NCBI GenBank assembly: GCA_964461715.1
Contig: CAYWVR010000011.1
Location: 11,289 to 75,288, forward strand
From: an uncultured Anaerolineales bacterium
GTDB lineage: Bacteria; Planctomycetota; Phycisphaerae; FEN-1346
DNA: 64,000 bases
Direction of reading: 5' to 3'
The position numbers and the translations under genes were made by a program. The notes under the pieces were generated by a model. The model was not told where the DNA came from, ran no database searches, and saw only the letters and a list, made by a program, of their open reading frames with translations. Position 1 is the first letter of the stretch. Each line of letters opens with the position of its first letter. This document shows positions 1,422 to 11,378 of the stretch, one piece after another.

Positions 1422-2345
1422 TTACCCCTTCGGCTCCGGTCGACGTTTCGCTGGCTCGCCGAGGGCGGACGGCAGGTCCGCGAGGCCCAGCCGCCGTCGC
1501 ATCTCCGGCTCGCGCGCCCGGGCCTCGCGCATCTCGGAAGCGTAATCGAACCGCTCCGTCAGCGACCCGCCCACCGTCACCCGCGCCGGACCTTTCAGGC
1601 CGTAGACCCGCTCGTTGATGAAGCGGCTCGCCCCCGGCCCGCCCATCAGGTCGTAGCCCTGGCGGACGGCTTCCTCCATGAACGCATCATCGTAGACGAG
1701 CTCGTTCATCGCCTCGAGCATCTTCGGGCCCTCGAAGTCGAGCGTGACGGTCGATCCCTCGCCCCGCGTGAAGTTGTCGAGGTCGCGGACTCGGCCCGGG
1801 AGGTCGAAGGCGAGGTGAATGTCGAGGGCCCGGACCATGCCGCCCGTCAGGCGGAGGCTATCGGTCCACTTCTTGCGCTGGGCCTCGACCAGCGCCTCGA
1901 CGCGGGCCGGGCTCGTGCCGGGGGGCAGGGGGCGGATGATCTTGGACTGGGCGCCGGGTTGGCGCATCTGGAGGGCCATCCCGCCGCGCCCGTCGGGACG
2001 CCACGTGAAAATGCCGCCCTTCATCATGTGGAGCTTGAGCTTCTCGACGTCGGGGTAGTAGGCCGTGCCGCGAAAGAAGATCCGCCCGTCCTGCCGCAGC
2101 TCGTACGCGACGTCCGTCCACGCCTCCACGCCGCGCGATTCCTCCAGAATCTTGAGGATCGCCCGCCGCACGGCGATGTTCGGGTCCTCGGCCGCCGGGC
2201 CGACACCGACCGCCGTGGAGATGAAGACGACCTCGTAGACGACCTTCCCCGATCCGTCCGGGTTGAGGGTGTACGCCTGGTCGGTCTCGAGACAGCCTGC
2301 CGCAATGGCCCAGGCCAGCAAGGGGATGATCGCTCGGATACGCAT
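1422..2345 (-). CDS. lipoprotein, paralog A (unknown family)
   Basis: Internal start MRIRAIIPLLAWAIAAGC gives a signal peptide plus lipobox Cys; CAT at 2343-2345. N-terminal ~110 aa are homologous to the next gene (TLNPDGSGKV..EAWTDV..DGRIFFRGTAYY). The ORF-track N-terminal extension to 2402 is rejected. Confidence 0.6.
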   Translation of the reverse strand: MRIRAIIPLLAWAIAAGCLETDQAYTLNPDGSGKVVYEVVFISTAVGVGPAAEDPNIAVRRAILKILEESRGVEAWTDVAYELRQDGRIFFRGTAYYPDVEKLKLHMMKGGIFTWRPDGRGGMALQMRQPGAQSKIIRPLPPGTSPARVEALVEAQRKKWTDSLRLTGGMVRALDIHLAFDLPGRVRDLDNFTRGEGSTVTLDFEGPKMLEAMNELVYDDAFMEEAVRQGYDLMGGPGASRFINERVYGLKGPARVTVGGSLTERFDYASEMREARAREPEMRRRLGLADLPSALGEPAKRRPEPKG

Positions 2346-2408
2346 ACGGGTTACTTTAGGGCGAGTCGAGGGTGAAGACAAGGCCCGACGGCGAAGCCGC
2401 ACGCGGGG

Positions 2409-4010
2409 TCACTTCCCCGGCCGCTTCGGCAGGGGCACGTTCTCGATCTTCCAGGGCACCTCGTAGCGCTTCAGGTCCTTGTGAAGTTCCAGGACGATGC
2501 GACCCTTCGCGGGGAAGCCCCCCGCGTGCGTCAGGTCGATCGTGACGGTCTCGTTCATGGTCATGCGGCCGGTCTCGTCCGTCTCGATCGGGGTCCCCTT
2601 GGCGTCCTGGAGCCGGACGGCCTTCAGGCCCGCCGGGGCCCGGTCGAGTTTGACGACGAGGGTCTGCTTGCCTTGCTGCCGCTCGCTCGGGCCGATCTCG
2701 ACGATGCTCACGCCGTAGGCGCCGCCGAGGGCGCCGACCTTCAGGTCCACCAGGCCCAGGTCCTCGACCTTGGTTCCGGCGGCAACCTGGTACTCCAGGA
2801 CCCCTTCGACCGCTTGGATGGCCTTCGCGCCCGTGGGCGGCATCGCCAGCTCCGCCTCGAAGGCCACGGTCCGGCCGTCCTCGCCGAGGCGGGGGAAATG
2901 GATTTTGCGATCCCAGTCGCTCTCGGGGAGGAGGCTCTGGCCGGTATCCGTGGTGGCCCTCGTGACGCGGCCCTCCTGAACCTCGAGGATCGACCCCGGC
3001 AGCCGCCCCACGAGGGCCACCGTGAAGCCGGGGTCTTCGCCGAAGGGCCGGACCCGGCCGGTGCCCTTGATCCAGACGAGCCGCAGGCCGCCCACCTCAA
3101 GTCGCTCGAAGCCCTGACCCTTGGCGGGCGGGGCGGGGACGACGTCGGCGAGGCCCGCCTCCCGGAGCATGGTCGGGAAGTTCTTCTTCGCCTCGGCGAC
3201 CTCGGCCTCCCAGTCGAACCGGGGCGCGAGGCCCGTGACGACGGCCCGCACGGGCCCGGCGGTGCCGAAGAGCTTCTCGTAGGCCTCGGGGGGAAAGGTG
3301 CCGCCCGGCTCGCCGCCGCCGGGCTTCTTCTTCGCGAGCACGGCCTTGCGCACGAACGTGTCGTCCTGCATGAGGGCGTCCATGGCCGAGAGGAGCTGCG
3401 CGCCGGTCAGGCCGAGGGTGACCGCGCCGGCTTCGTCGGTCTTCTTGAAGTTGACGACCTCCTCCGCCTTTCCCGGCAGGTGGAACGTGACCGTGTCGCT
3501 GGCGGCCCCCAGGACGACGCCCATCATGGCCTTGGCGGTCTGGAACTGGAGCCGCTCCTTGGCGATGGCGGCCTGGATTTCCTCCTCGGTCATCTCGGGT
3601 TTGTCCCCGGTCGTCTCGGGCGGCTCGGCGGTGGTCAGGATGCCACGCCCGTCCTCGCTCCGAATCCATTCGAACTCCAGGAGCTGCATGTTCTGGAGCT
3701 TCAGACCGTCGAGGCTTCGGAAGTAGGCGGTACCTTGGAAATGGATTTGCCCATCGGGGAGCGTCTCGACCTTCACGTTTTTCCAGGCATCGACGCCCTC
3801 CGATTTCTTGAGGATATCGCGGACGGCGTCGCGGGCGGCCTTCTCGCGCGACGCGGCCTCGCCGAGCCCGAGGTCGGGGACGGTGAGTTTCGAGTCGATG
3901 GTGACCTTGCCGGCGCCGTCGGGGTTGAGGGTGATGTCGCGTTTCGTCTCGAAGCATCCGGCGACGAAGGCGGCGGCCAGGGCGAGGGCGAGGCCGAGGG
4001 CGCGGGGCAT
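2409..4010 (-). CDS. lipoprotein, paralog B (unknown family)
   Basis: Start MPRALGLALALAAAFVAGC (lipobox); CAT 4008-4010 is preceded by AAAGGAG on the minus strand. It shares TLNPDGAGKV..DAWKNV..DGQIHFQGTAYF with paralog A. Confidence 0.6.
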   Translation of the reverse strand: MPRALGLALALAAAFVAGCFETKRDITLNPDGAGKVTIDSKLTVPDLGLGEAASREKAARDAVRDILKKSEGVDAWKNVKVETLPDGQIHFQGTAYFRSLDGLKLQNMQLLEFEWIRSEDGRGILTTAEPPETTGDKPEMTEEEIQAAIAKERLQFQTAKAMMGVVLGAASDTVTFHLPGKAEEVVNFKKTDEAGAVTLGLTGAQLLSAMDALMQDDTFVRKAVLAKKKPGGGEPGGTFPPEAYEKLFGTAGPVRAVVTGLAPRFDWEAEVAEAKKNFPTMLREAGLADVVPAPPAKGQGFERLEVGGLRLVWIKGTGRVRPFGEDPGFTVALVGRLPGSILEVQEGRVTRATTDTGQSLLPESDWDRKIHFPRLGEDGRTVAFEAELAMPPTGAKAIQAVEGVLEYQVAAGTKVEDLGLVDLKVGALGGAYGVSIVEIGPSERQQGKQTLVVKLDRAPAGLKAVRLQDAKGTPIETDETGRMTMNETVTIDLTHAGGFPAKGRIVLELHKDLKRYEVPWKIENVPLPKRPGK

Positions 4011-4620
4011 GGCGTCTCCTTTCCGGGGTTCGGTTCTCCTTACTATTACCGTGGGAGGAGGTCCGGATTCACGAGAAAAGATCGCCAAGACCGGCCGGAC
4101 GCGAAAAAAGAGGCGTCCCGGCGGCTGGGGACGCCGGGACGCGGGTAGGACTCACCGGCCGCCCGGGCGGAGGGGAGAGGGGGGAAACTCCAGCCGGAGG
4201 CGACCGGCGCTGCATCCGTGTTCACTTGTCGGCCCCGCGGGGGGGCGGGCGCGTCGGCCGCCGAGGGGGGGCGACGACCGACGCGCCAAAGGGGGCGAAG
4301 CATGCACGTGAGCCACAGGAGACTATAGAGACGAACGGCCCGGCGCCAAATCGGGGCCCGGGGAAGGATTTCGCGAAGACCCGCGGGTCTCAGGTAAGTG
4401 CTTTTTCTGGAAGGACTTATGACAAGGCCGCTGGCTCTCGGGAGGGTCGCAGGGGAGGCGGCCTCCGGTGCGCGCAGCTCGGCAAACCGCGAGAAAAAGC
4501 TCGCGAGGGTTCCCGGCAGGGCCTGTCAGAACTTTGGAACCGCCTCCCGGCGGGCGGCGTCCAAGACCGAAGAACGCGGACCTGCATCCGCATGGCAGCC
4601 CAGCGCAAAGGAGGCTTCGG

Positions 4621-5814
4621 ATGAACGCGAAACGGACCCCGGGGATCGCGGTCGTGGCGGCCGTCATGGTCGCGACGCTTGCCGCGCCCGCCGCCGCACG
4701 CATCAAGCTGGCCACCCTCCCGGCCCGGGAGCGGGTCGAGATCCAGCTCGACAACGAGAATGCCACCCTCGTCGAGGAGGAGCGGATCGTGACGCTCCTG
4801 AAGGGGACGAACCACATCGACTTTTCGTGGTCGAATACCGAGATCGACAAGTCCACGATCCTCTTCCGGCCCATCGGCGTCGGCGACGCGGTCCGCGTCA
4901 TCCACGTCGCCTATCCGCCCGGCGAGAACGCCCTCGTCTGGCAGGTCTTCGCCGACAAGGCCGGGCCGGTGAAGGTGCGGATCTCGTACCTGATCGGGAA
5001 CCTGCGGCGGACGTTCTCGTACCGGGCCACGGCCGAGCACGACGAGAAGACCCTCACCCTGCGCAACTACATGCGCGTCTGGAACTTCTCCGGCGAGGAG
5101 TTCGGGTCGAACGCAGGCGTCTGGGCGGGCTTCGGCGAGTACTTCCGCAAGGAGATCGGCCTCCAGGAGTCGAAGGAGATGCTCCTGGCGAAGTTCGTCA
5201 GGGTGCCCATCCGGAAGCGGTTCCTCTTCAACTGGCTGACCGCCCCGCCCGTCCCCGACGAGCCCTACCAGAAGTACGTCCGGATGTACTACGTCCTTCA
5301 GAACGATAAGGAGCACGGCCTTGGCGAGTTTCCCCTGCCCTTCGGCAAGGCCCGCATCTTCTTGAAGGACGGACGCGGCGGCGAGGCCTTCATGGGCGAG
5401 GACTGGGGCCCGTTCACCCCCATCGACGACGAGATGAAGCTGTACCTGGGCCTGGCGCGCGACGTCAAGGTCGAGCGGACCGTCAAGAAGAACCAGCGCC
5501 ACAAAGTCCACGGCAACCTCTTCCACCAGGAGGTCATCGTCCAGTACAAGATGCAGAACTTCAAGGACGAGCCCGTCCAGCTCGACATCGAGGAGAACAT
5601 GAACCGGCTCCGCGACGAGTTCTGCGGGGGGCAGAAGAGTCGCGAGGCGCAGTGGGAGCTGGCCGGCGAGACGACCGACAAGGCGGCCGTCGAGCGCTTA
5701 AGCGCCCAGGACGTCGAGGTCCACGTCTCGCTGCCCGCCGCCCCCGAGGCCGCGGACAAGAAGCCCGACGAGGTCACGTTCCTCCTCCACGTCTTCTTCC
5801 GGAACGAATGGTAA
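4621..5814 (+). CDS. secreted ~400-aa protein, tandem paralog 1 (possibly DUF4139/DUF4140, MuiA-like; unverified)
   Basis: ATG 4621 follows AAAGGAGG. Signal peptide MNAKRTPGIAVVAAVMVATLAAPAAA. Shares the motif LATLP.RE.V.L...E...LV.E.R.I....G.N...FSW with the next two genes. Confidence 0.65.
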   Translation: MNAKRTPGIAVVAAVMVATLAAPAAARIKLATLPARERVEIQLDNENATLVEEERIVTLLKGTNHIDFSWSNTEIDKSTILFRPIGVGDAVRVIHVAYPPGENALVWQVFADKAGPVKVRISYLIGNLRRTFSYRATAEHDEKTLTLRNYMRVWNFSGEEFGSNAGVWAGFGEYFRKEIGLQESKEMLLAKFVRVPIRKRFLFNWLTAPPVPDEPYQKYVRMYYVLQNDKEHGLGEFPLPFGKARIFLKDGRGGEAFMGEDWGPFTPIDDEMKLYLGLARDVKVERTVKKNQRHKVHGNLFHQEVIVQYKMQNFKDEPVQLDIEENMNRLRDEFCGGQKSREAQWELAGETTDKAAVERLSAQDVEVHVSLPAAPEAADKKPDEVTFLLHVFFRNEW

Positions 5815-5836
5815 GTCCCTACGAAAGGAGCCGGCC

Positions 5837-7198
5837 ATGACCGTTCGCACGCTCATCGCGACCGTGGCGGGGCTCGTCCTCGCGGGGACCGCCGCCGCCC
5901 GAAACGTCGACCTGGTGACCCTCCCACCCCGGGAAAAGGTGCAGCTGACGATCTACAACTCCGAGGACCTGACGCTCGTCAAGGAAACCCGGTCGATCAC
6001 CTTCAAGAAGGGCGTCAACCGCCTCCAGTTCTCGTGGGCCGGGACGCTGATCGACCCGACGAGCGTCTACTTCCGCCCCCTCGGCGACGCGGCCGATCAG
6101 ATCGAGGTCCTGGACGCGACCTTCCCCCAGGACCGCCCCCGGGTGCTCATCTGGAACATCGAATCGCAGATCGAGGGGCAGGTGAAGGTCGAGGTGTCCT
6201 ACTTCACCTCCGGCATCTCCTGGGCCGCCGATTACGTTATGATCACCGACGCGGCCGAGACCCGGGCCAGCTTCGACGGGCACGTCACCGTCACGAACCA
6301 TTCCGGCGAGGATTATGAGGGGGCCGAGGTGCGGCTCGTGGTGGGGGTGGTGAACCTGGTGGAGAAGATCCGCCGGCTCGCCGGGGGGATGCCCCCCCCG
6401 GCGCCCCGTTTGCCCGGCGGCGAGGCGGTCCACACCCGCGACGACAAGATGCTCGCGGCCCGCGGGGCCATCGACTTAGCCGAGCGGGCCAAGGCCGACC
6501 GTCCCGCCGAGGACCGTCCCGCCGAGGTCGTCAAGGAAGGGCTCAGCGAGTACTTCATCTTCACGGTCGAGGGCACGCAGACCGTCCCGAACGGCTGGTC
6601 GCGGCGGATGGTCTCGTTCAAGGCGGCTCCGGTCCCCTTCGACATCCTCTACCGCTACCGCCCGCACCAGTACGGCGATCGTCCCGTGCGGTTCTTCCTG
6701 CTGGCCAATGACGCCGAGCACAAGATGGGAGAGTCTCCCCTCCCGGACGGCGTCATCCGCGTCTTCCGCCGGGGCGAGCGCGACGGCTTGGCCTACTACA
6801 CCACGCAATCGACGAAGTACATCCCCGTCAAGGAGAAGATCGAGCTCAACGTGGGCACGGACGACCAGATCGTCTATCAGCGGGTCGTGCTGGACGTTGC
6901 CCGCTCGCGGTTCATCTTCGACCACTCCCCGCCGCGCGTCGTCGGTTGGGACGAGCGCCAGACGTGGGAGGAGGAGGTCCGCAACTACCGCGCGGGGCCC
7001 ATCCGGATGGAAATCCGCCACCTCATCGGCGGCCACGTTGAGTTTACCCTGGAGGATTCGCCCAAGCTCTTCGACTTCCACACGGTCGAGTACACCGTGA
7101 CCATCGGCGCCGGCCGGACGCACACGTGGACGAGCGAAGGCCTCTTCCACCACGGCCGCAACAAGAGCCAGGAGCACATCGAGCTCGTCCGCCCGTGA
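5837..7198 (+). CDS. secreted ~450-aa protein, tandem paralog 2
   Basis: ATG 5837 follows GAAAGGAG. Signal peptide MTVRTLIATVAGLVLAGTAAA. N-terminal block NVDLVTLPPREKVQLTIYNSEDLTLVKETRSITFKKG is near-identical to paralog 3. Confidence 0.7.
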   Translation: MTVRTLIATVAGLVLAGTAAARNVDLVTLPPREKVQLTIYNSEDLTLVKETRSITFKKGVNRLQFSWAGTLIDPTSVYFRPLGDAADQIEVLDATFPQDRPRVLIWNIESQIEGQVKVEVSYFTSGISWAADYVMITDAAETRASFDGHVTVTNHSGEDYEGAEVRLVVGVVNLVEKIRRLAGGMPPPAPRLPGGEAVHTRDDKMLAARGAIDLAERAKADRPAEDRPAEVVKEGLSEYFIFTVEGTQTVPNGWSRRMVSFKAAPVPFDILYRYRPHQYGDRPVRFFLLANDAEHKMGESPLPDGVIRVFRRGERDGLAYYTTQSTKYIPVKEKIELNVGTDDQIVYQRVVLDVARSRFIFDHSPPRVVGWDERQTWEEEVRNYRAGPIRMEIRHLIGGHVEFTLEDSPKLFDFHTVEYTVTIGAGRTHTWTSEGLFHHGRNKSQEHIELVRP

Positions 7199-7208
7199 AA
7201 GGATCGCG

Positions 7209-8573
7209 ATGACACGCGCGCTCGCTCTCTTCGTGGTGGTCCTGGCCGCCACCGCCGCCGAGGCCCGGAACGTCGACCTCGTCACCCTCCCGCCCAGGGA
7301 GGCCGTGCAGCTGACGATCTACAACTCCGAGGACCTGACGCTCGTCAAGGAAACCCGGTCGATCACCTTCAAAAAGGGTGCGAACCGCCTCCAGTTCTCC
7401 TGGGACGGGACGCTGATCGACCCGACGAGCGTCCACTTCCGGCCCGTCGGGGACGCCGCCGAGCGGGTCGAGGTCCTCGACACCACGTTCCCCGCCGACC
7501 GCCCGCAGGTCCTCATCTGGAACGTCGAGTCGAAGGTCGAGGGGCAGGTGGAGGTCGAGGTCAGCTACTTTACGAGCGGCATCTCCTGGGCCGCCGACTA
7601 TATCATGATCACCGACGCCGCCGAGACCGAGGCGAGCTTCGACGGCTACGTGACGGTCACGAATCGCTCCGGCGAGGATTACGAGGAGGCCGAGGTGCGG
7701 CTCGTGGTGGGTGTCGTGAACCTCGTCGAGCCCATCGCCCAACTGGCCCGGCCCGAGGACGCTAAGAATCGGGCGGGTCTTGATCGGGGCCGGAAGGAGG
7801 ACATGCTCCGCCGAAAGTGCGAACTGGCCGAGCCCACCCAGGTCTACGGTCTGCCGGAGAGCTTGTTCTGTGAAGCAGACGCCGCGCCGCCGAAGATCGT
7901 CAAGGAAGGGCTCTCCGAATACTTCATCTTCACCGTCGAGGGCACCCAGACCGTTCCCAACGGCTGGTCACAGCGGATGGTCTCGTTCAAGGCGGCTCCG
8001 GTCCCCTTCGACATCCTCTACCGCTACCGCCCGCACCAGTACGGCGACCGGCCCGTCCGGTTCCTCCTCCTCGCCAACGACGAGGAGCACAAGATGGGCG
8101 AGTCTCCCCTTCCGGACGGGGTGATCCGCGTCTTCCGCCAGGGCGAGCGCGACGGCTTGGCGTACTACACCACGCAATCGACGAAGTACATCCCTATCCG
8201 CGAGAAGATCGAGCTGAATGTGGGCACGGACGACCAAATCGTCTACGAGCGGGTCATCCTGGACGTGGCGCGCTCGACGTTCCTCTTCAACGACCAGGCG
8301 CGCGTGCCGCAGGTCATCGGATGGGACGAGCTTCGCACCTGGCGGGAGGAGGTCCGCAACTACCGCGCGGGGCCCATCCGGATGGAAATCCGCCACCTCA
8401 TCGGCGGGGACGTCGAGTTCACCCTCGAGGATTCGCCCACGCTCTTCGACTTCCGGACGGTCGAGTACACGGTGACCGTCGACGCCGGGAAGAGCCGAAC
8501 GTGGACGAGCACGGGCCTCATCCACCACGGGGTGAGCCAGAAGCAGAACCGGGTCCGGCTCGTCGGCCGCTGA
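7209..8573 (+). CDS. secreted ~450-aa protein, tandem paralog 3
   Basis: ATG 7209 follows GAAAGGA. Signal peptide MTRALALFVVVLAATAAEA. Long stretches are ~90% nucleotide-identical to paralog 2 (for example 6607-6680 vs 7977-8050, identical). Confidence 0.7.
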   Translation: MTRALALFVVVLAATAAEARNVDLVTLPPREAVQLTIYNSEDLTLVKETRSITFKKGANRLQFSWDGTLIDPTSVHFRPVGDAAERVEVLDTTFPADRPQVLIWNVESKVEGQVEVEVSYFTSGISWAADYIMITDAAETEASFDGYVTVTNRSGEDYEEAEVRLVVGVVNLVEPIAQLARPEDAKNRAGLDRGRKEDMLRRKCELAEPTQVYGLPESLFCEADAAPPKIVKEGLSEYFIFTVEGTQTVPNGWSQRMVSFKAAPVPFDILYRYRPHQYGDRPVRFLLLANDEEHKMGESPLPDGVIRVFRQGERDGLAYYTTQSTKYIPIREKIELNVGTDDQIVYERVILDVARSTFLFNDQARVPQVIGWDELRTWREEVRNYRAGPIRMEIRHLIGGDVEFTLEDSPTLFDFRTVEYTVTVDAGKSRTWTSTGLIHHGVSQKQNRVRLVGR

Positions 8574-8597
8574 CGCGGCATCCCCGGACTTTCGGCC

Positions 8598-8625
8598 TTG
8601 CACGTTCCCCCTCCCCCGCTATACT
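8598..8625 (+). promoter_or_regulatory. putative sigma70-type promoter of fba
   Basis: TTGCAC (8598-8603), 16-nt spacer, TATACT (8620-8625), ~70 nt upstream of the fba ATG; the ATG is preceded by GAAAGGAG. Confidence 0.4.
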
Positions 8626-8698
8626 GTCTCGGCTCCGGCGGGGCGGGCTCCCGTCCGGGCAACCCGGAACCCGAACAGGACCGAAAGGAGCCGCATCC

Positions 8699-9715
8699 AT
8701 GCCGCTTACGCCCATGCGACAGATCCTCGACGAGGCCCGCGCCGGCGGGTACGGCGTCGGGGCGTACAACGTCAATAACATGGAGCAGATCCAGGCCATC
8801 CTCCAGGCCGCCGCCGAGACCCGCTCGCCCCTGATTATCCAGGCCAGCCGCGGGGCCCTCCAGTACACCAACCTCGTCTACCTCAAGAAGCTCATGGAGG
8901 CCGCCGTCGAGGACAACCCGGACCTGCCCGTCGCTCTCCACCTCGACCATGGGCCGAACCTCGACCTCTGCAAGGAGGCCATCGCCCTCGGCTTCACGAG
9001 CGTCATGATCGACGGCTCCATCGACTACGACACGAAGACCGAGTCCGGCAAGCACCCGGCCCGCAGCCTCGAGGACAACATCCGCGTCACCAAGGAGGTC
9101 GTCGATTACGCCCACGCCCACGGCGTCAGCGTCGAGGGCGAGCTGGGGACCCTGGGCGGCATCGAGGAGGACACCCAGACCGACAAGGTCCTCCTGACCG
9201 AGCCCGACGAGGTCGAGCAGTTCTGCACCGAGACGGGCGTCGACGCCCTGGCCCTGGCCATCGGCACCAGCCACGGGGCCTACAAGTTCAAGCACGAGCC
9301 CGTCCTCGCCCTCGACCTCATCTCCGAGTGCCGCACGCGCATCTCGGACGTCGCCTTCGTCATGCACGGCTCCAGCAGCGTTCCGAAGGAGCTCGTCGAC
9401 GAGGTCAACAACTACGGCGGCGAGTTGCCGGGCGCAATGGGCGTGCCCATCCCGTCGATCCAGGAGGCGATCAAGCGCGGCATCCAGAAGATCAACGTGG
9501 ACACCGACGGCCGCCTCGTCGTCACGGCGGCCATCCGCAAGGTCTTCGTCGAGAAGCCCGGCGAGTTCGACCCGCGCAAGTACCTCGGGCCTGCCCGCGA
9601 GGCCCTCGCCGAGCTCATCGCCTCGAAGATGCGCGACTTCGGCACCGCCGGCCACGCCGGCGACTACACGCCCAAGTCCCTCGAGGACATGAAGAAGGCC
9701 TACGGTACGGCGTGA
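8699..9715 (+). CDS. fba: fructose-bisphosphate aldolase, class II
   Basis: MPLTPMRQILDEARAGGYGVGAYNVNNMEQ...HLDHG...GTSHGAYKF is the class II FBA (FbaA) signature. ATG 8699 follows GAAAGGAG. The ORF-track 5' extension to 8321 is rejected. Confidence 0.9.
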   Translation: MPLTPMRQILDEARAGGYGVGAYNVNNMEQIQAILQAAAETRSPLIIQASRGALQYTNLVYLKKLMEAAVEDNPDLPVALHLDHGPNLDLCKEAIALGFTSVMIDGSIDYDTKTESGKHPARSLEDNIRVTKEVVDYAHAHGVSVEGELGTLGGIEEDTQTDKVLLTEPDEVEQFCTETGVDALALAIGTSHGAYKFKHEPVLALDLISECRTRISDVAFVMHGSSSVPKELVDEVNNYGGELPGAMGVPIPSIQEAIKRGIQKINVDTDGRLVVTAAIRKVFVEKPGEFDPRKYLGPAREALAELIASKMRDFGTAGHAGDYTPKSLEDMKKAYGTA

Positions 9716-9767: not shown

Positions 9768-11378
9768 ATGACCCCGCGCAAACTCCTCGTCGTCGGCCTC
9801 GCTCTCTTCGCCGCCGGGAGCGTCGTGGGCGCGCTGGCGGCCCGAAGCGGGCGGCAGATCAAGCCGTCGCCCTTCGCCTATGCCGTCACTTTCTTCGCCC
9901 CGCCCGCGGGCTGGGGCCAGGAGCCCGAGGCGCCGGAAGAACCGGCCGAAGAGGCGCCCCCCGAGCCCGAGACGCCCCCCGAGGCCGCGCCGGACGTGAC
10001 TCCCGAGCCCGAGGAAGGGGCCGAGACCGACGCCACCGGCGATGCCGAGGCGGAGCTTCCCCTCGAGCCGCTCGATCTCAAGGAACTCTACGGCATCCTT
10101 ACCCCTGACGACGTCGAGGCCATCGCCCGGGTCGCGGCCCCGGCCGGGCTGCCGCTTGGGCTGATGCAGGTGGTGACCCACGTGCCCGCGTCCTCCTGGG
10201 CCGTGCCCGAGCGGATCGCCGTCGCCCTCGTCGGCGACGGCCAGGCGGACGCGTTCCTCGACCCGCTTGTGGCGCCCGAGGCGCGCGGGGTCGACGTCTA
10301 CCTCGGTTCCCCGGGGTCCCTCGAGGCGATTCTCGCCCCCTATGAGACGTTCCCGCCGGACGCCGCCGCCTCGACGGCAGCCCATCTTCCGCCCTCGGCC
10401 CGGAGCCTGCGGGGGCTGATGCTCGTCCGGGCCTCGGCCGCCGAAGCCTTCGGCCTCGACCCCGGGGGCCCGCGGCCCAACGCCCTCGTCGTGCCGCTCG
10501 ACCCGCAGGGAAGGACTCGCCCGGGAGATGAGTCCCGCTTCCGCCGGCCCAACCTCGAGGAGGTTGTCGCGGCGGCCCTGCCGCTCTACGCCGAGCGCGG
10601 CATCTCGTTTCGGGCCCAGGATCTGCGGCTTACGGCGGCGCGGCCGGAGCGATGGGCAGGAACGGCGGCCCTGGCCCTGATGCTGGCGGGCGGGGCGGCG
10701 ATCGTGGCGGCGGGTCTGGCGCACTTGGCCGCCATGGAGGAGGCCCGGGGACTTATCCTCGAGAGCCTCGTCCGCGGAGCCCGCGTCACCCGCGAGGCAG
10801 GCGCGACGACCCTTGGCGTCCTCGCGGTCCTCTGGGCCGTCACCGTGGCGGGGGCGGCATGGGGCGGGCCGGTCATGCTCGACCTGCTGGTCCGCGCCTC
10901 GCCCAACACCGTCTATCCGACGCTCGATCAGATCGGCCTGCCCGGCAGCGAGCCGACCCTCAGCCCCCTCGTCTCGGCCTTCGTCGCCTCGCTGATGGGA
11001 GTCCTGGTGCTCCGGGCCATCGTGGCGGTGGGCATCCCGAGCCTCGTGCCGGGCCTCGGCCTGGTGACGGCGGCGGCCGTGGCCCTCCTCTGGGGAGCGA
11101 TGCTCGCGCCGGTGGCCCTGACGTCCCTCGACCGGCTGCCCTGGACCGGGGCGGTGGCGGCAATCGAGCTGGCGGTCGTCGCGACCGTGGCGCTCGGGGC
11201 GTGGCACGTGCTGGAAGGGGTCCTTCGACCCGCCGCCTTCGGCCAGGAGACCCGCCGCCAGGGCTACGCCGCCGCCGTCGAGCGTCTCTATATGCTGCTG
11301 CCCCTGGTCGCCGCCCTCGCCCTCGCCGCCGCCCTCCTCAGGACGCTGTTGCTGGCGGGGCTGGGGTGGTTGGGGTAG
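9768..11378 (+). CDS. hypothetical membrane protein with acidic Pro/Glu-rich N-terminal region
   Basis: N-terminal TM/signal segment (LLVVGLALFAAGSVVGALAA), a PE-rich linker, then several hydrophobic helices in the C-terminal half. GC3-biased codon usage. No recognised family. Confidence 0.5.
   Translation: MTPRKLLVVGLALFAAGSVVGALAARSGRQIKPSPFAYAVTFFAPPAGWGQEPEAPEEPAEEAPPEPETPPEAAPDVTPEPEEGAETDATGDAEAELPLEPLDLKELYGILTPDDVEAIARVAAPAGLPLGLMQVVTHVPASSWAVPERIAVALVGDGQADAFLDPLVAPEARGVDVYLGSPGSLEAILAPYETFPPDAAASTAAHLPPSARSLRGLMLVRASAAEAFGLDPGGPRPNALVVPLDPQGRTRPGDESRFRRPNLEEVVAAALPLYAERGISFRAQDLRLTAARPERWAGTAALALMLAGGAAIVAAGLAHLAAMEEARGLILESLVRGARVTREAGATTLGVLAVLWAVTVAGAAWGGPVMLDLLVRASPNTVYPTLDQIGLPGSEPTLSPLVSAFVASLMGVLVLRAIVAVGIPSLVPGLGLVTAAAVALLWGAMLAPVALTSLDRLPWTGAVAAIELAVVATVALGAWHVLEGVLRPAAFGQETRRQGYAAAVERLYMLLPLVAALALAAALLRTLLLAGLGWLG

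What the first reader, a model, noticed from the sequence alone, without database searches (positions are those of the whole stretch)
4621..8573. Three tandem paralogs of a secreted ~400-450-aa protein; paralogs 2 and 3 carry gene-conversion-like identical blocks
All three ORFs have signal peptides and good RBSs, and share an N-terminal block (LATLPxRExVQLxIxNxxxxLVxExRxIxxxKGxNxxxFSW). Paralogs 2 and 3 are ~90% identical at the nucleotide level over long stretches, with perfectly identical runs (for example 6607-6680 = 7977-8050). Their central regions differ: paralog 2 has an Ala/Asp/Arg-rich insert (6400-6520) and paralog 3 a different insert (7720-7890).

This pattern is typical of rapidly diversifying surface or secreted families. 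The family may correspond to DUF4139/DUF4140 (MuiA-like), but I cannot verify that without an HMM search.
Basis: partly seen in the sequence, partly recalled or inferred. Interest (0 to 1): 0.6.

Follow-up and report, generated by a model that had tools for sequence, protein, structure and literature searches.

The report
Conserved secreted DUF4139-like A/B operon
Three neighbouring genes in a Phycisphaerae (Planctomycetota) genome encode exported all-beta proteins of an uncharacterised family; they form a widely conserved "one A gene plus one to four B genes" operon whose B copies are kept alike by gene conversion, except for a short variable middle segment.

Summary
Three co-directional ORFs (4621-5814, 5837-7198, 7209-8573) encode Sec-signal proteins. 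g1 is a distant paralog (25% identity).

The reading as a "rapidly diversifying surface family" is not supported. The protein bodies are under strong purifying selection (dN/dS about 0.1) and are 65-81% identical across Phycisphaerae. Only a roughly 52-aa central linker varies.

The genes form a conserved operon. A single A-type gene (g1) is followed by a B-type gene in 68 of 68 related loci, with 1-4 B copies. B bodies group by genome while linkers keep older relationships, and mosaic tracts are plain in a relative. This indicates concerted evolution by gene conversion.

All belong to the DUF4139 superfamily but fall far below the MuiA (TIGR02231) cutoff. AF2 models are confident and all-beta, and no solved structure matches well. 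Ost1/ribophorin I tops Foldseek, without sequence-profile support.

In other Planctomycetota a B-like domain is fused to an anti-sigma factor next to an ECF sigma. That suggests a periplasmic, envelope-related role, which remains inferred.

The parts
4621..5814 (+). g1, the A-type gene: a 397-aa exported all-beta protein. It is single-copy and has no central linker.
   Evidence: ORF and RBS. It is 25% identical to g2, E 2e-28. Orthologs are 65-81% identical and 385-419 aa long. The AF2 model has pLDDT 90.6 and pTM 0.75. Pfam DUF4139 gives only 21.5 bits.
4621..4698 (+). Predicted Sec signal peptide of g1 (MNAKRTPGIAVVAAVMVATLAAPAAA|R).
   Evidence: Read from the translation. AF2 gives a helix at residues 6-20 with low pLDDT. 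No signal-peptide predictor was available.
5837..7198 (+). g2, B-type copy 1, 453 aa.
   Evidence: DUF4139 scores 30.2 bits. It is 76% identical to g3.
7209..8573 (+). g3, B-type copy 2, 454 aa.
   Evidence: DUF4139 scores 35.4 bits, above the gathering score. The AF2 model has pLDDT 89.1 and pTM 0.78.
6371..6526 (+). Variable central linker cassette of g2 (aa 179-230, RRLAGGMPPPAP...).
   Evidence: Identity to g3 drops to 28-55% here. Its best matches are the linkers of first-position B copies in other genomes (L003, L002, L006; z 5.4-6.7), not g3.
7737..7895 (+). Variable central linker cassette of g3 (aa 177-229). It has a helix followed by a disordered stretch and contains two Cys.
   Evidence: AF2 predicts a helix at 183-206 (pLDDT about 70-80), and pLDDT is below 50 at 210-235. 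The segment is hypervariable in every copy of every genome.
5939..6006 (+). Exact 68-nt run shared with 7305-7372.
   Evidence: permutation test.
6604..6678 (+). Exact 75-nt run shared with 7973-8047.
   Evidence: permutation test.
6970..7032 (+). Exact 63-nt run shared with 8345-8407.
   Evidence: permutation test.

Best explanation
The three genes form one operon, A-B-B, that is conserved across Phycisphaerae and other Planctomycetota. It encodes Sec-exported, multi-beta-sandwich proteins of the uncharacterised DUF4139 superfamily.

Shown:
- A single A-type gene is always followed by one to four B-type genes.
- Both types are under strong purifying selection.
- The B copies evolve in concert. 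Gene conversion homogenises the two structured halves within each genome. The roughly 52-aa helix-plus-disordered linker between them escapes conversion, drifts under relaxed constraint, and keeps older, position-specific relationships.

Inferred:
- A and B act together outside the cytoplasmic membrane, in the periplasm or envelope, as non-enzymatic binding or scaffold subunits, probably as a hetero-oligomer.
- The repeated B genes mainly supply dosage, and the variable linker is a flexible excursion.
- The role is tied to cell-envelope state. In another Planctomycetota lineage a B-like domain is the periplasmic part of an anti-sigma factor encoded next to an ECF sigma factor and the A gene. 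The name-giving relative MuiA of Pseudomonas aeruginosa is a target of an envelope-stress ECF sigma.
For: Operon anatomy: gaps of 22 and 10 nt, each gene with its own RBS.

Conservation: there are 5503 B-type and 1855 A-type homologs at E <= 1e-3, and the best are 64-81% identical. In the library of 50%-identity cluster representatives, 3483 proteins match at E <= 1e-3.

Architecture: A is followed by B within 400 nt in 68 of 68 loci with room to check. Complete arrays hold 1 (9 loci), 2 (18), 3 (2) or 4 (4) B copies.

Concerted evolution:
- Within-genome B copies cluster together in NJ trees.
- The nearest neighbour of the B body lies in the same locus for 54 of 79 copies. Median within-locus identity is 0.90 against 0.54 between loci.
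- The four copies in L004 are mosaic. B1 and B3 share a 292-nt exact run while their linkers are about 35% identical; B3 and B4 are 99% identical at the 5' end; B1 and B4 share the linker.
- In L002 and L006 the paralog body dS (0.27-0.37) is no greater than the ortholog dS (0.32-0.45), while the paralog linker dS is saturated.
- The g2 linker matches B1 linkers of another clade better than it matches g3.
- In the window, long identical runs exceed the shuffles (p = 0.0024) while between-genome controls do not.

Selection: body dN/dS is 0.11-0.13 and linker dN/dS is 0.24-1.0.

Envelope and ECF link: all four C-type loci (L010-L013) read ThuA-like, ECF sigma, C-type; the three that extend further (L010-L012) continue with A, and L010 with two B. 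Seven of ten long family representatives carry a weak N-terminal zf-HC2 match. For MuiA, SbrI/SbrR control and induction by envelope stress are described in PMC10418997.
Against: - No experimental datum exists for any member of this subfamily.
- The window and its close relatives have no ECF sigma or anti-sigma gene beside the operon. The signalling link is therefore by homology to a different lineage.
- Physical interaction between A and B is inferred only from invariant adjacency.
- Repeated lineage-specific duplication could produce part of the within-genome clustering.
- In the window the two copies are among the most diverged (body dS 0.39), so conversion here is old. A 4-fold-site run test was not significant.
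- One lineage (L040/L042) keeps B copies only 59-64% identical, so homogenisation is not universal.
Confidence: 0.55

Rival explanations
1. Birth-and-death without conversion. Each lineage duplicated its B gene independently and recently. The identical blocks in the window then reflect only protein constraint plus extreme GC3 codon bias.
For: GC3 is 0.92-0.96, which lowers synonymous divergence. The 4-fold-site run test gives p = 0.45. Copy number varies from 1 to 4 among relatives. The close relative GCA_964397995.1 has one B at the locus and one on another contig.
Against: L004 shows mosaic tracts with different partners along the gene. Linker dS is saturated while body dS between paralogs is no greater than ortholog dS. 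The g2 linker resembles first-position linkers of another clade. Within-genome pairs show an excess of long runs that between-genome controls lack.
Confidence: 0.15
2. One reading: a rapidly diversifying surface or secreted antigen or adhesin family, whose central inserts are under diversifying selection.
For: The proteins have signal peptides. The central segment is hypervariable in every copy. Linker dN/dS reaches about 1 in some pairs.
Against: Body dN/dS is about 0.1, and identity is 64-81% across a bacterial class. Linker dN/dS never clearly exceeds 1. The linker is predicted to be a helix plus a disordered stretch, not a folded binding surface.
Confidence: 0.08
3. A bacterial structural relative of the eukaryotic OST subunit Ost1/ribophorin I. 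On this view it is an extracytoplasmic beta-sandwich scaffold that holds glycan or polypeptide substrates for a membrane enzyme.
Against: TM-scores are only 0.14-0.19 with rmsd above 20 A. hhalign of the family profiles against a ribophorin I profile gives probability 0.5-2.4%. No Ribophorin_I Pfam hit appears in 76 members. A profile search of PDB sequences finds nothing at E <= 1. There is no C-terminal membrane anchor and no glycosyltransferase neighbour.
Confidence: 0.1
4. An assembly artefact: a collapsed or duplicated repeat.
For: None beyond the presence of identical runs.
Against: The copies differ at 19% of bases and have different linkers. The same tandem layout is found in many independent assemblies.
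Confidence: 0.01

Closest known systems
Pfam DUF4139 (PF13598) superfamily, uncharacterised
   Same: All 76 sampled relatives match the model, and g3 passes the gathering score. They share the conserved N-x-S-G-E-[DE]-[YF] motif and the 'LIDP-S' motif.
   Different: The matches are partial (model positions 1-151 of 205) and weak. The A type mostly has no Pfam hit at all. The two-type A/B operon and the multi-copy B array are not part of the family description.
MuiA family (NCBIfam TIGR02231; P. aeruginosa mucoidy inhibitor A)
   Same: Both are exported proteins of the same superfamily. Both have a link to ECF sigma/anti-sigma systems: SbrI drives muiA (PMC10418997), and here relatives carry an ECF sigma plus an anti-sigma fused to a B-like domain.
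   Different: Scores are 26-28 bits against a cutoff of 112.6. The proteins are shorter. The middle region is a short variable linker, or absent in A. No ECF genes lie beside the window operon.
Ost1/ribophorin I luminal domain (PF04597)
   Same: It is the best Foldseek match for both models and is co-linear over the full length.
   Different: There is no profile-level sequence similarity. TM-scores are low, there is no transmembrane anchor, and no OST-like partner is present.
Concerted evolution of tandem bacterial paralogs by gene conversion, as in tuf genes or rRNA operons (named from general knowledge)
   Same: Paralogs are more alike within a genome than orthologs are between genomes, and mosaic tracts are visible.
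   Different: Here an internal cassette, the linker, consistently escapes homogenisation, and the array size varies from 1 to 4.

Membership tests
Pfam DUF4139 (PF13598) | Whole-protein score at or above the gathering score of 31.8 bits | tested here: met
   g3 scores 35.4 bits. g2 scores 30.2 and g1 21.5, both below the cutoff but with E 4e-7 and 2e-4. 76 of 76 relatives match, best E 5e-15.
Pfam DUF4140 (PF13600) N-terminal domain | Score at or above 27 bits | tested here: not met
   The three window proteins give no hit. 11 of 76 relatives give weak hits, best E 0.003. An L010 A-type protein scores 17.2 bits.
NCBIfam TIGR02231 (MuiA family) | Score at or above the curated cutoff of 112.6 bits | tested here: not met
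   Scores are 26.3, 27.7 and 25.7 bits.
MuiA-like ECF-controlled envelope-stress protein | Expression driven by an ECF sigma/anti-sigma pair | not testable with these tools
   No ECF gene lies beside the window operon. ECF sigma plus an anti-sigma fused to a B-like domain precede the A gene in L010-L012 (L013 ends within the C-type gene), which belong to a different lineage. No expression data were available.
Ribophorin I / Ost1 (PF04597) | Sequence-profile similarity to the family | tested here: not met
   hhalign probability is 0.5% and 2.4%. No Pfam hit and no PDB sequence hit.
Ribophorin I / Ost1 (PF04597) | The same fold for both luminal beta-sandwich domains | tested here: inconclusive
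Ribophorin I / Ost1 (PF04597) | C-terminal transmembrane anchor | tested here: not met
   AF2 predicts beta strands up to the C-terminus, and no hydrophobic tail is visible in the translations.
Paralogs under gene conversion (concerted evolution) | Paralogs within a genome are closer than orthologs between genomes | tested here: met
   Trees; nearest-neighbour count of 54 of 79; dS comparison for L002/L006.
Paralogs under gene conversion (concerted evolution) | Mosaic tracts, meaning an excess of long identical runs | tested here: met
   L004 has exact runs of 292, 182 and 134 nt with changing partners. In the window, p = 0.0024 for the longest run, and 0 of 5000 shuffles give three runs of 60 nt or more. 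The 4-fold-site test was not significant.
Anti-sigma factor (zf-HC2 type) | N-terminal H-x3-C-x2-C domain plus a transmembrane helix | tested here: not met
   The feature is absent from g1-g3, which have cleavable signal peptides instead. It is present only in the C-type relatives.

The most novel reading that the evidence does not exclude
A and B may be subunits of an abundant, Planctomycetota-wide extracytoplasmic assembly. It would be built from a fold distantly related to the Ost1/ribophorin I and PIG-T scaffolds of eukaryotic ER glycosylation machines, and the anti-sigma-fused paralog would monitor its state. On this reading the B array is a dosage device kept uniform by gene conversion, while each copy displays a different flexible linker.
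Probability: 0.1. Interest if true: 0.75.

Novelty: new variant of a known kind. Interest (0 to 1): 0.4.

Why it matters
DUF4139 is a large family found in all domains of life, and its function has not been tested beyond one Pseudomonas phenotype. This locus defines a clean two-subunit A/B subfamily with invariant gene order in Planctomycetota. It provides confident structural models and a genomic link to ECF sigma/anti-sigma signalling. Those points give concrete experiments for an envelope component in a phylum whose envelope biology is still debated. The B array is also a tidy natural example of concerted evolution in which an internal cassette escapes homogenisation. The result is not a surprise at the level of mechanism: tandem paralogs and gene conversion are ordinary.

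Tried and rejected
- Rfam and tRNA scans of the window found nothing.
- The promoter and terminator scan of 4000-9000 found no + strand promoter upstream of g1 and no convincing terminator after g3.
- PADLOC defence models gave no hit.
- A profile search of PDB sequences gave no hit at E <= 1.
- The AlphaFold-database Foldseek library was unavailable.
- The Ost1/ribophorin I lead was tested with a verified yeast Ost1 sequence and a 34-sequence family profile. hhalign probability was 0.5-2.4%, so homology is not claimed.
- Literature searches for DUF4139, DUF4140, TIGR02231 and PF13598 returned only incidental mentions.
- The closest homolog P0003 could not be located on a contig.
- The longer GTG start at 4468 for g1 was rejected on ortholog length and RBS position.
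Full report
**What is there**

The region holds three co-directional ORFs on the + strand.
- g1 runs from 4621 to 5814 (397 aa). I take ATG 4621 as the start because AAAGGAGG lies at 4607-4614 and orthologs are 385-419 aa, mostly 394-397. The mechanically longer GTG 4468 start is unlikely.
- g2 runs from 5837 to 7198 (453 aa) and g3 from 7209 to 8573 (454 aa).
- The gaps between genes are 22 and 10 nt, and each gene is preceded by AAAGGA(G). The three genes read as one operon.
- Each product starts with a basic n-region, a hydrophobic stretch of 12-15 residues and an A-x-A site. This was read from the sequence; no predictor was available. There is no lipobox cysteine.
- The window is about 70% G+C, and GC3 of these genes is 0.92-0.96.

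**Check of the observation**

- g2 and g3 are 76% identical in protein. In DNA they are 81% identical overall and 85-97% in the conserved stretches.
The exact runs are 6604-6678 = 7973-8047 (75 nt), 5939-6006 = 7305-7372 (68 nt) and 6970-7032 = 8345-8407 (63 nt).
- The divergent central segments are g2 aa 179-230 (nt 6371-6526) and g3 aa 177-229 (nt 7737-7895).
- g1 is a genuine but distant paralog: 25% identity, E 2e-28. It lacks the central segment.
- The copies differ at 19% of bases, so an assembly duplication is excluded.

**Family**

- Pfam finds only DUF4139: g3 scores 35.4 bits (gathering score 31.8), g2 30.2 and g1 21.5.
- All 76 sampled relatives hit DUF4139, and 11 hit DUF4140 weakly.
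- The MuiA model TIGR02231 scores 26-28 bits against a cutoff of 112.6. These proteins are therefore superfamily members, not MuiA-family members.
- There are no hits to defence models or to any PDB sequence.

**Distribution and conservation**

- The B-type query (g3) finds 5503 proteins at E <= 1e-3. The best 120 are 64-76% identical, come largely from Phycisphaerae or Planctomycetota MAGs, and several share a contig.
- The A-type query (g1) finds 1855 proteins, up to 81% identical, mostly without any Pfam annotation.
- In the library of 50%-identity cluster representatives, 3483 proteins match at E <= 1e-3 and 295 at 1e-30.
- This level of conservation does not fit a rapidly diversifying family.

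**Locus architecture**

- I examined 15 loci fetched by protein identity or from species-representative genomes and 80 metagenomic loci anchored on the A gene.
- The A gene is followed by a B gene within 400 nt in 68 of 68 loci that have room to check.
- Complete arrays hold one (9 loci), two (18), three (2) or four (4) B copies. A is always single.
- The closest syntenic relative is GCA_964397995.1. Its locus reads UDG, a small gene, A, B, fba, a roughly 550-aa protein, then NTP-transferase, as in the window. It has one B at the locus and a second B on another contig.
- The class II fructose-bisphosphate aldolase downstream (8699-9715) recurs in several relatives. It appears to have its own promoter-like sequence, so I treat it as a neighbour and not as a part of the operon.

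**Concerted evolution of the B copies**

- NJ trees place the copies of one genome together in the window, L001, L004, L007, L009, L010 and the GCA_964397995.1 pair. Only the very close genomes L002 and L006 show positional orthologs.
- Over 107 B genes, the nearest neighbour of the structured body lies in the same locus for 54 of 79 copies from multi-copy loci. The exceptions are mostly near-identical sister genomes.
- One lineage (L040/L042) is a real exception: its copies are only 59-64% identical.
- Median body identity is 0.90 within loci and 0.54 between loci.
- Direct evidence for conversion comes from the four copies of L004. B1 and B3 share a 292-nt exact run while their linkers are about 35% identical. 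B3 and B4 are 99% identical at the 5' end. B1 and B4 share the linker.
- In L002 and L006 the paralog bodies have dS of 0.27-0.37, no greater than the ortholog dS of 0.32-0.45, while the paralog linkers are saturated.
- The g2 linker (GGMPPPAP...) matches the linkers of first-position copies in L003, L002 and L006 (z 5.4-6.7) better than it matches g3.
- Together these results indicate an old duplication. The two structured halves are repeatedly homogenised, and the linker escapes.
- In the window itself the copies are among the most diverged (body dS 0.386, dN 0.106). Even so, shuffling synonymous-difference patterns reaches a 75-nt run in only 0.24% of trials and never yields three runs of 60 nt or more. 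Between-genome controls give p = 0.22-0.24.
- A weaker test on 4-fold sites alone was not significant (p = 0.45). I therefore rate conversion in the window as likely but old.

**Selection**

Ortholog body dN/dS is 0.11-0.13. Linker dN/dS is 0.24-1.0. This is relaxed constraint, not demonstrated positive selection.

**Structure**

- The AF2 model of g3 has pLDDT 89.1 and pTM 0.78. The model of g1 has pLDDT 90.6 and pTM 0.75. Both are all-beta.
- In B the linker is a helix (183-206, moderate confidence) followed by a disordered stretch (210-235, pLDDT below 50). In A the linker is replaced by short strands.
- Foldseek against the PDB ranks Ost1/ribophorin I first for both models, with E down to 1.3e-5. 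TM is only 0.14-0.19.
- I tested this lead. A yeast Ost1 sequence, verified against the PDB, seeded a 34-sequence ribophorin I alignment. hhalign against the family profiles gave probabilities of 0.5% and 2.4%.
- The resemblance is therefore an untested structural lead, not homology.

**Functional context**

- In four loci from other Planctomycetota (L010-L013) the order is ThuA-like gene, ECF sigma factor, then a 626-648-aa 'C-type' protein (cut by the contig end in L013). In L010-L012 the A gene follows, and in L010 two B genes as well.
- The C-type protein has an N-terminal H-x3-C-x2-C anti-sigma-like motif, one transmembrane helix, a Pro/Ala-rich spacer and a B-like body.
- Seven of ten long family representatives show the same weak zf-HC2 match.
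- In P. aeruginosa, muiA is transcribed by the ECF sigma SbrI under the anti-sigma SbrR and is induced by envelope stress (PMC10418997).
- I infer that the fold works outside the cytoplasmic membrane and is connected to envelope state. The window operon itself has no ECF genes beside it, so this step is by analogy.

**Most likely mechanism**

I put this at 0.55 overall. It is high for the evolutionary and architectural statements and about 0.3 for the functional ones.
- A and B are exported, non-enzymatic beta-sandwich subunits that act together in the periplasm or envelope.
- The B array supplies dosage and is kept uniform by gene conversion.
- The linker is a flexible excursion under little constraint.

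Rivals are birth-and-death duplication without conversion (0.15), the Ost1-like scaffold reading (0.10), a diversifying surface antigen (0.08), and an assembly artefact (0.01).

**Novelty and interest**

This is a distinct, previously undescribed A/B subfamily and operon within a known but uncharacterised superfamily. The evolutionary behaviour is a good example of a known process. I rate interest as moderate, at 0.4.

Noticed in passing
window 1422-2402 (-) and 2409-4088 (-): There is a second tandem paralog pair just upstream, on the opposite strand. The two proteins look like lipoproteins (a Cys after the hydrophobic leader, shared TLNPDG[SA]GKV start), are 35% identical (E 1e-41), and have no Pfam or NCBIfam family. 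The longer one carries an extra C-terminal half of about 230 aa.
   Followed up: partly
L010 4227-6684; L011 6677-9335; L012 6821-9332; L013 3486-5430: This is a conserved cassette: ThuA-like gene, ECF sigma factor, then an anti-sigma-like protein whose periplasmic part is a B-like DUF4139 domain, followed by the A gene in L010-L012 (L013 ends within the C-type gene). It appears to be an undescribed anti-sigma sensor-domain class.
   Followed up: partly
window 8597-8632: TTGCAC, a 17-nt spacer, then TATACT lies between the g3 stop and the aldolase gene (8699-9715). This suggests that fba has its own promoter. It was read by eye and not found by the scan's stricter rules.
   Followed up: no
models of window 7209-8573 and 4621-5814: Both AF2 models give Ost1/ribophorin I (the eukaryotic OST subunit) as the top Foldseek PDB hits, followed by the N-terminal beta domain of M1 aminopeptidases. 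There is no sequence-profile support.
   Followed up: yes
L040 and L042 (three B copies each): This is one lineage in which the B copies of a locus are only 59-64% identical. It is an exception to the within-genome homogenisation seen elsewhere.
   Followed up: no
protein P0161 (822 aa, C-type relative): It carries an insertion of about 190 aa inside the first beta domain, between 'QLTIYNTSD' and 'TLTLVRERR'. No Pfam match covers the inserted stretch.
   Followed up: no
window 7737-7895 (g3 linker): The g3 linker contains two cysteines (RRKCELAE...SLFCEAD) that could form a disulfide in the periplasm. The g2 linker has none.
   Followed up: no
window 9768-11378 (+): This 536-aa protein has no Pfam family. 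It is conserved in position after fba in relatives (522-558 aa in L001 and L015).
   Followed up: no
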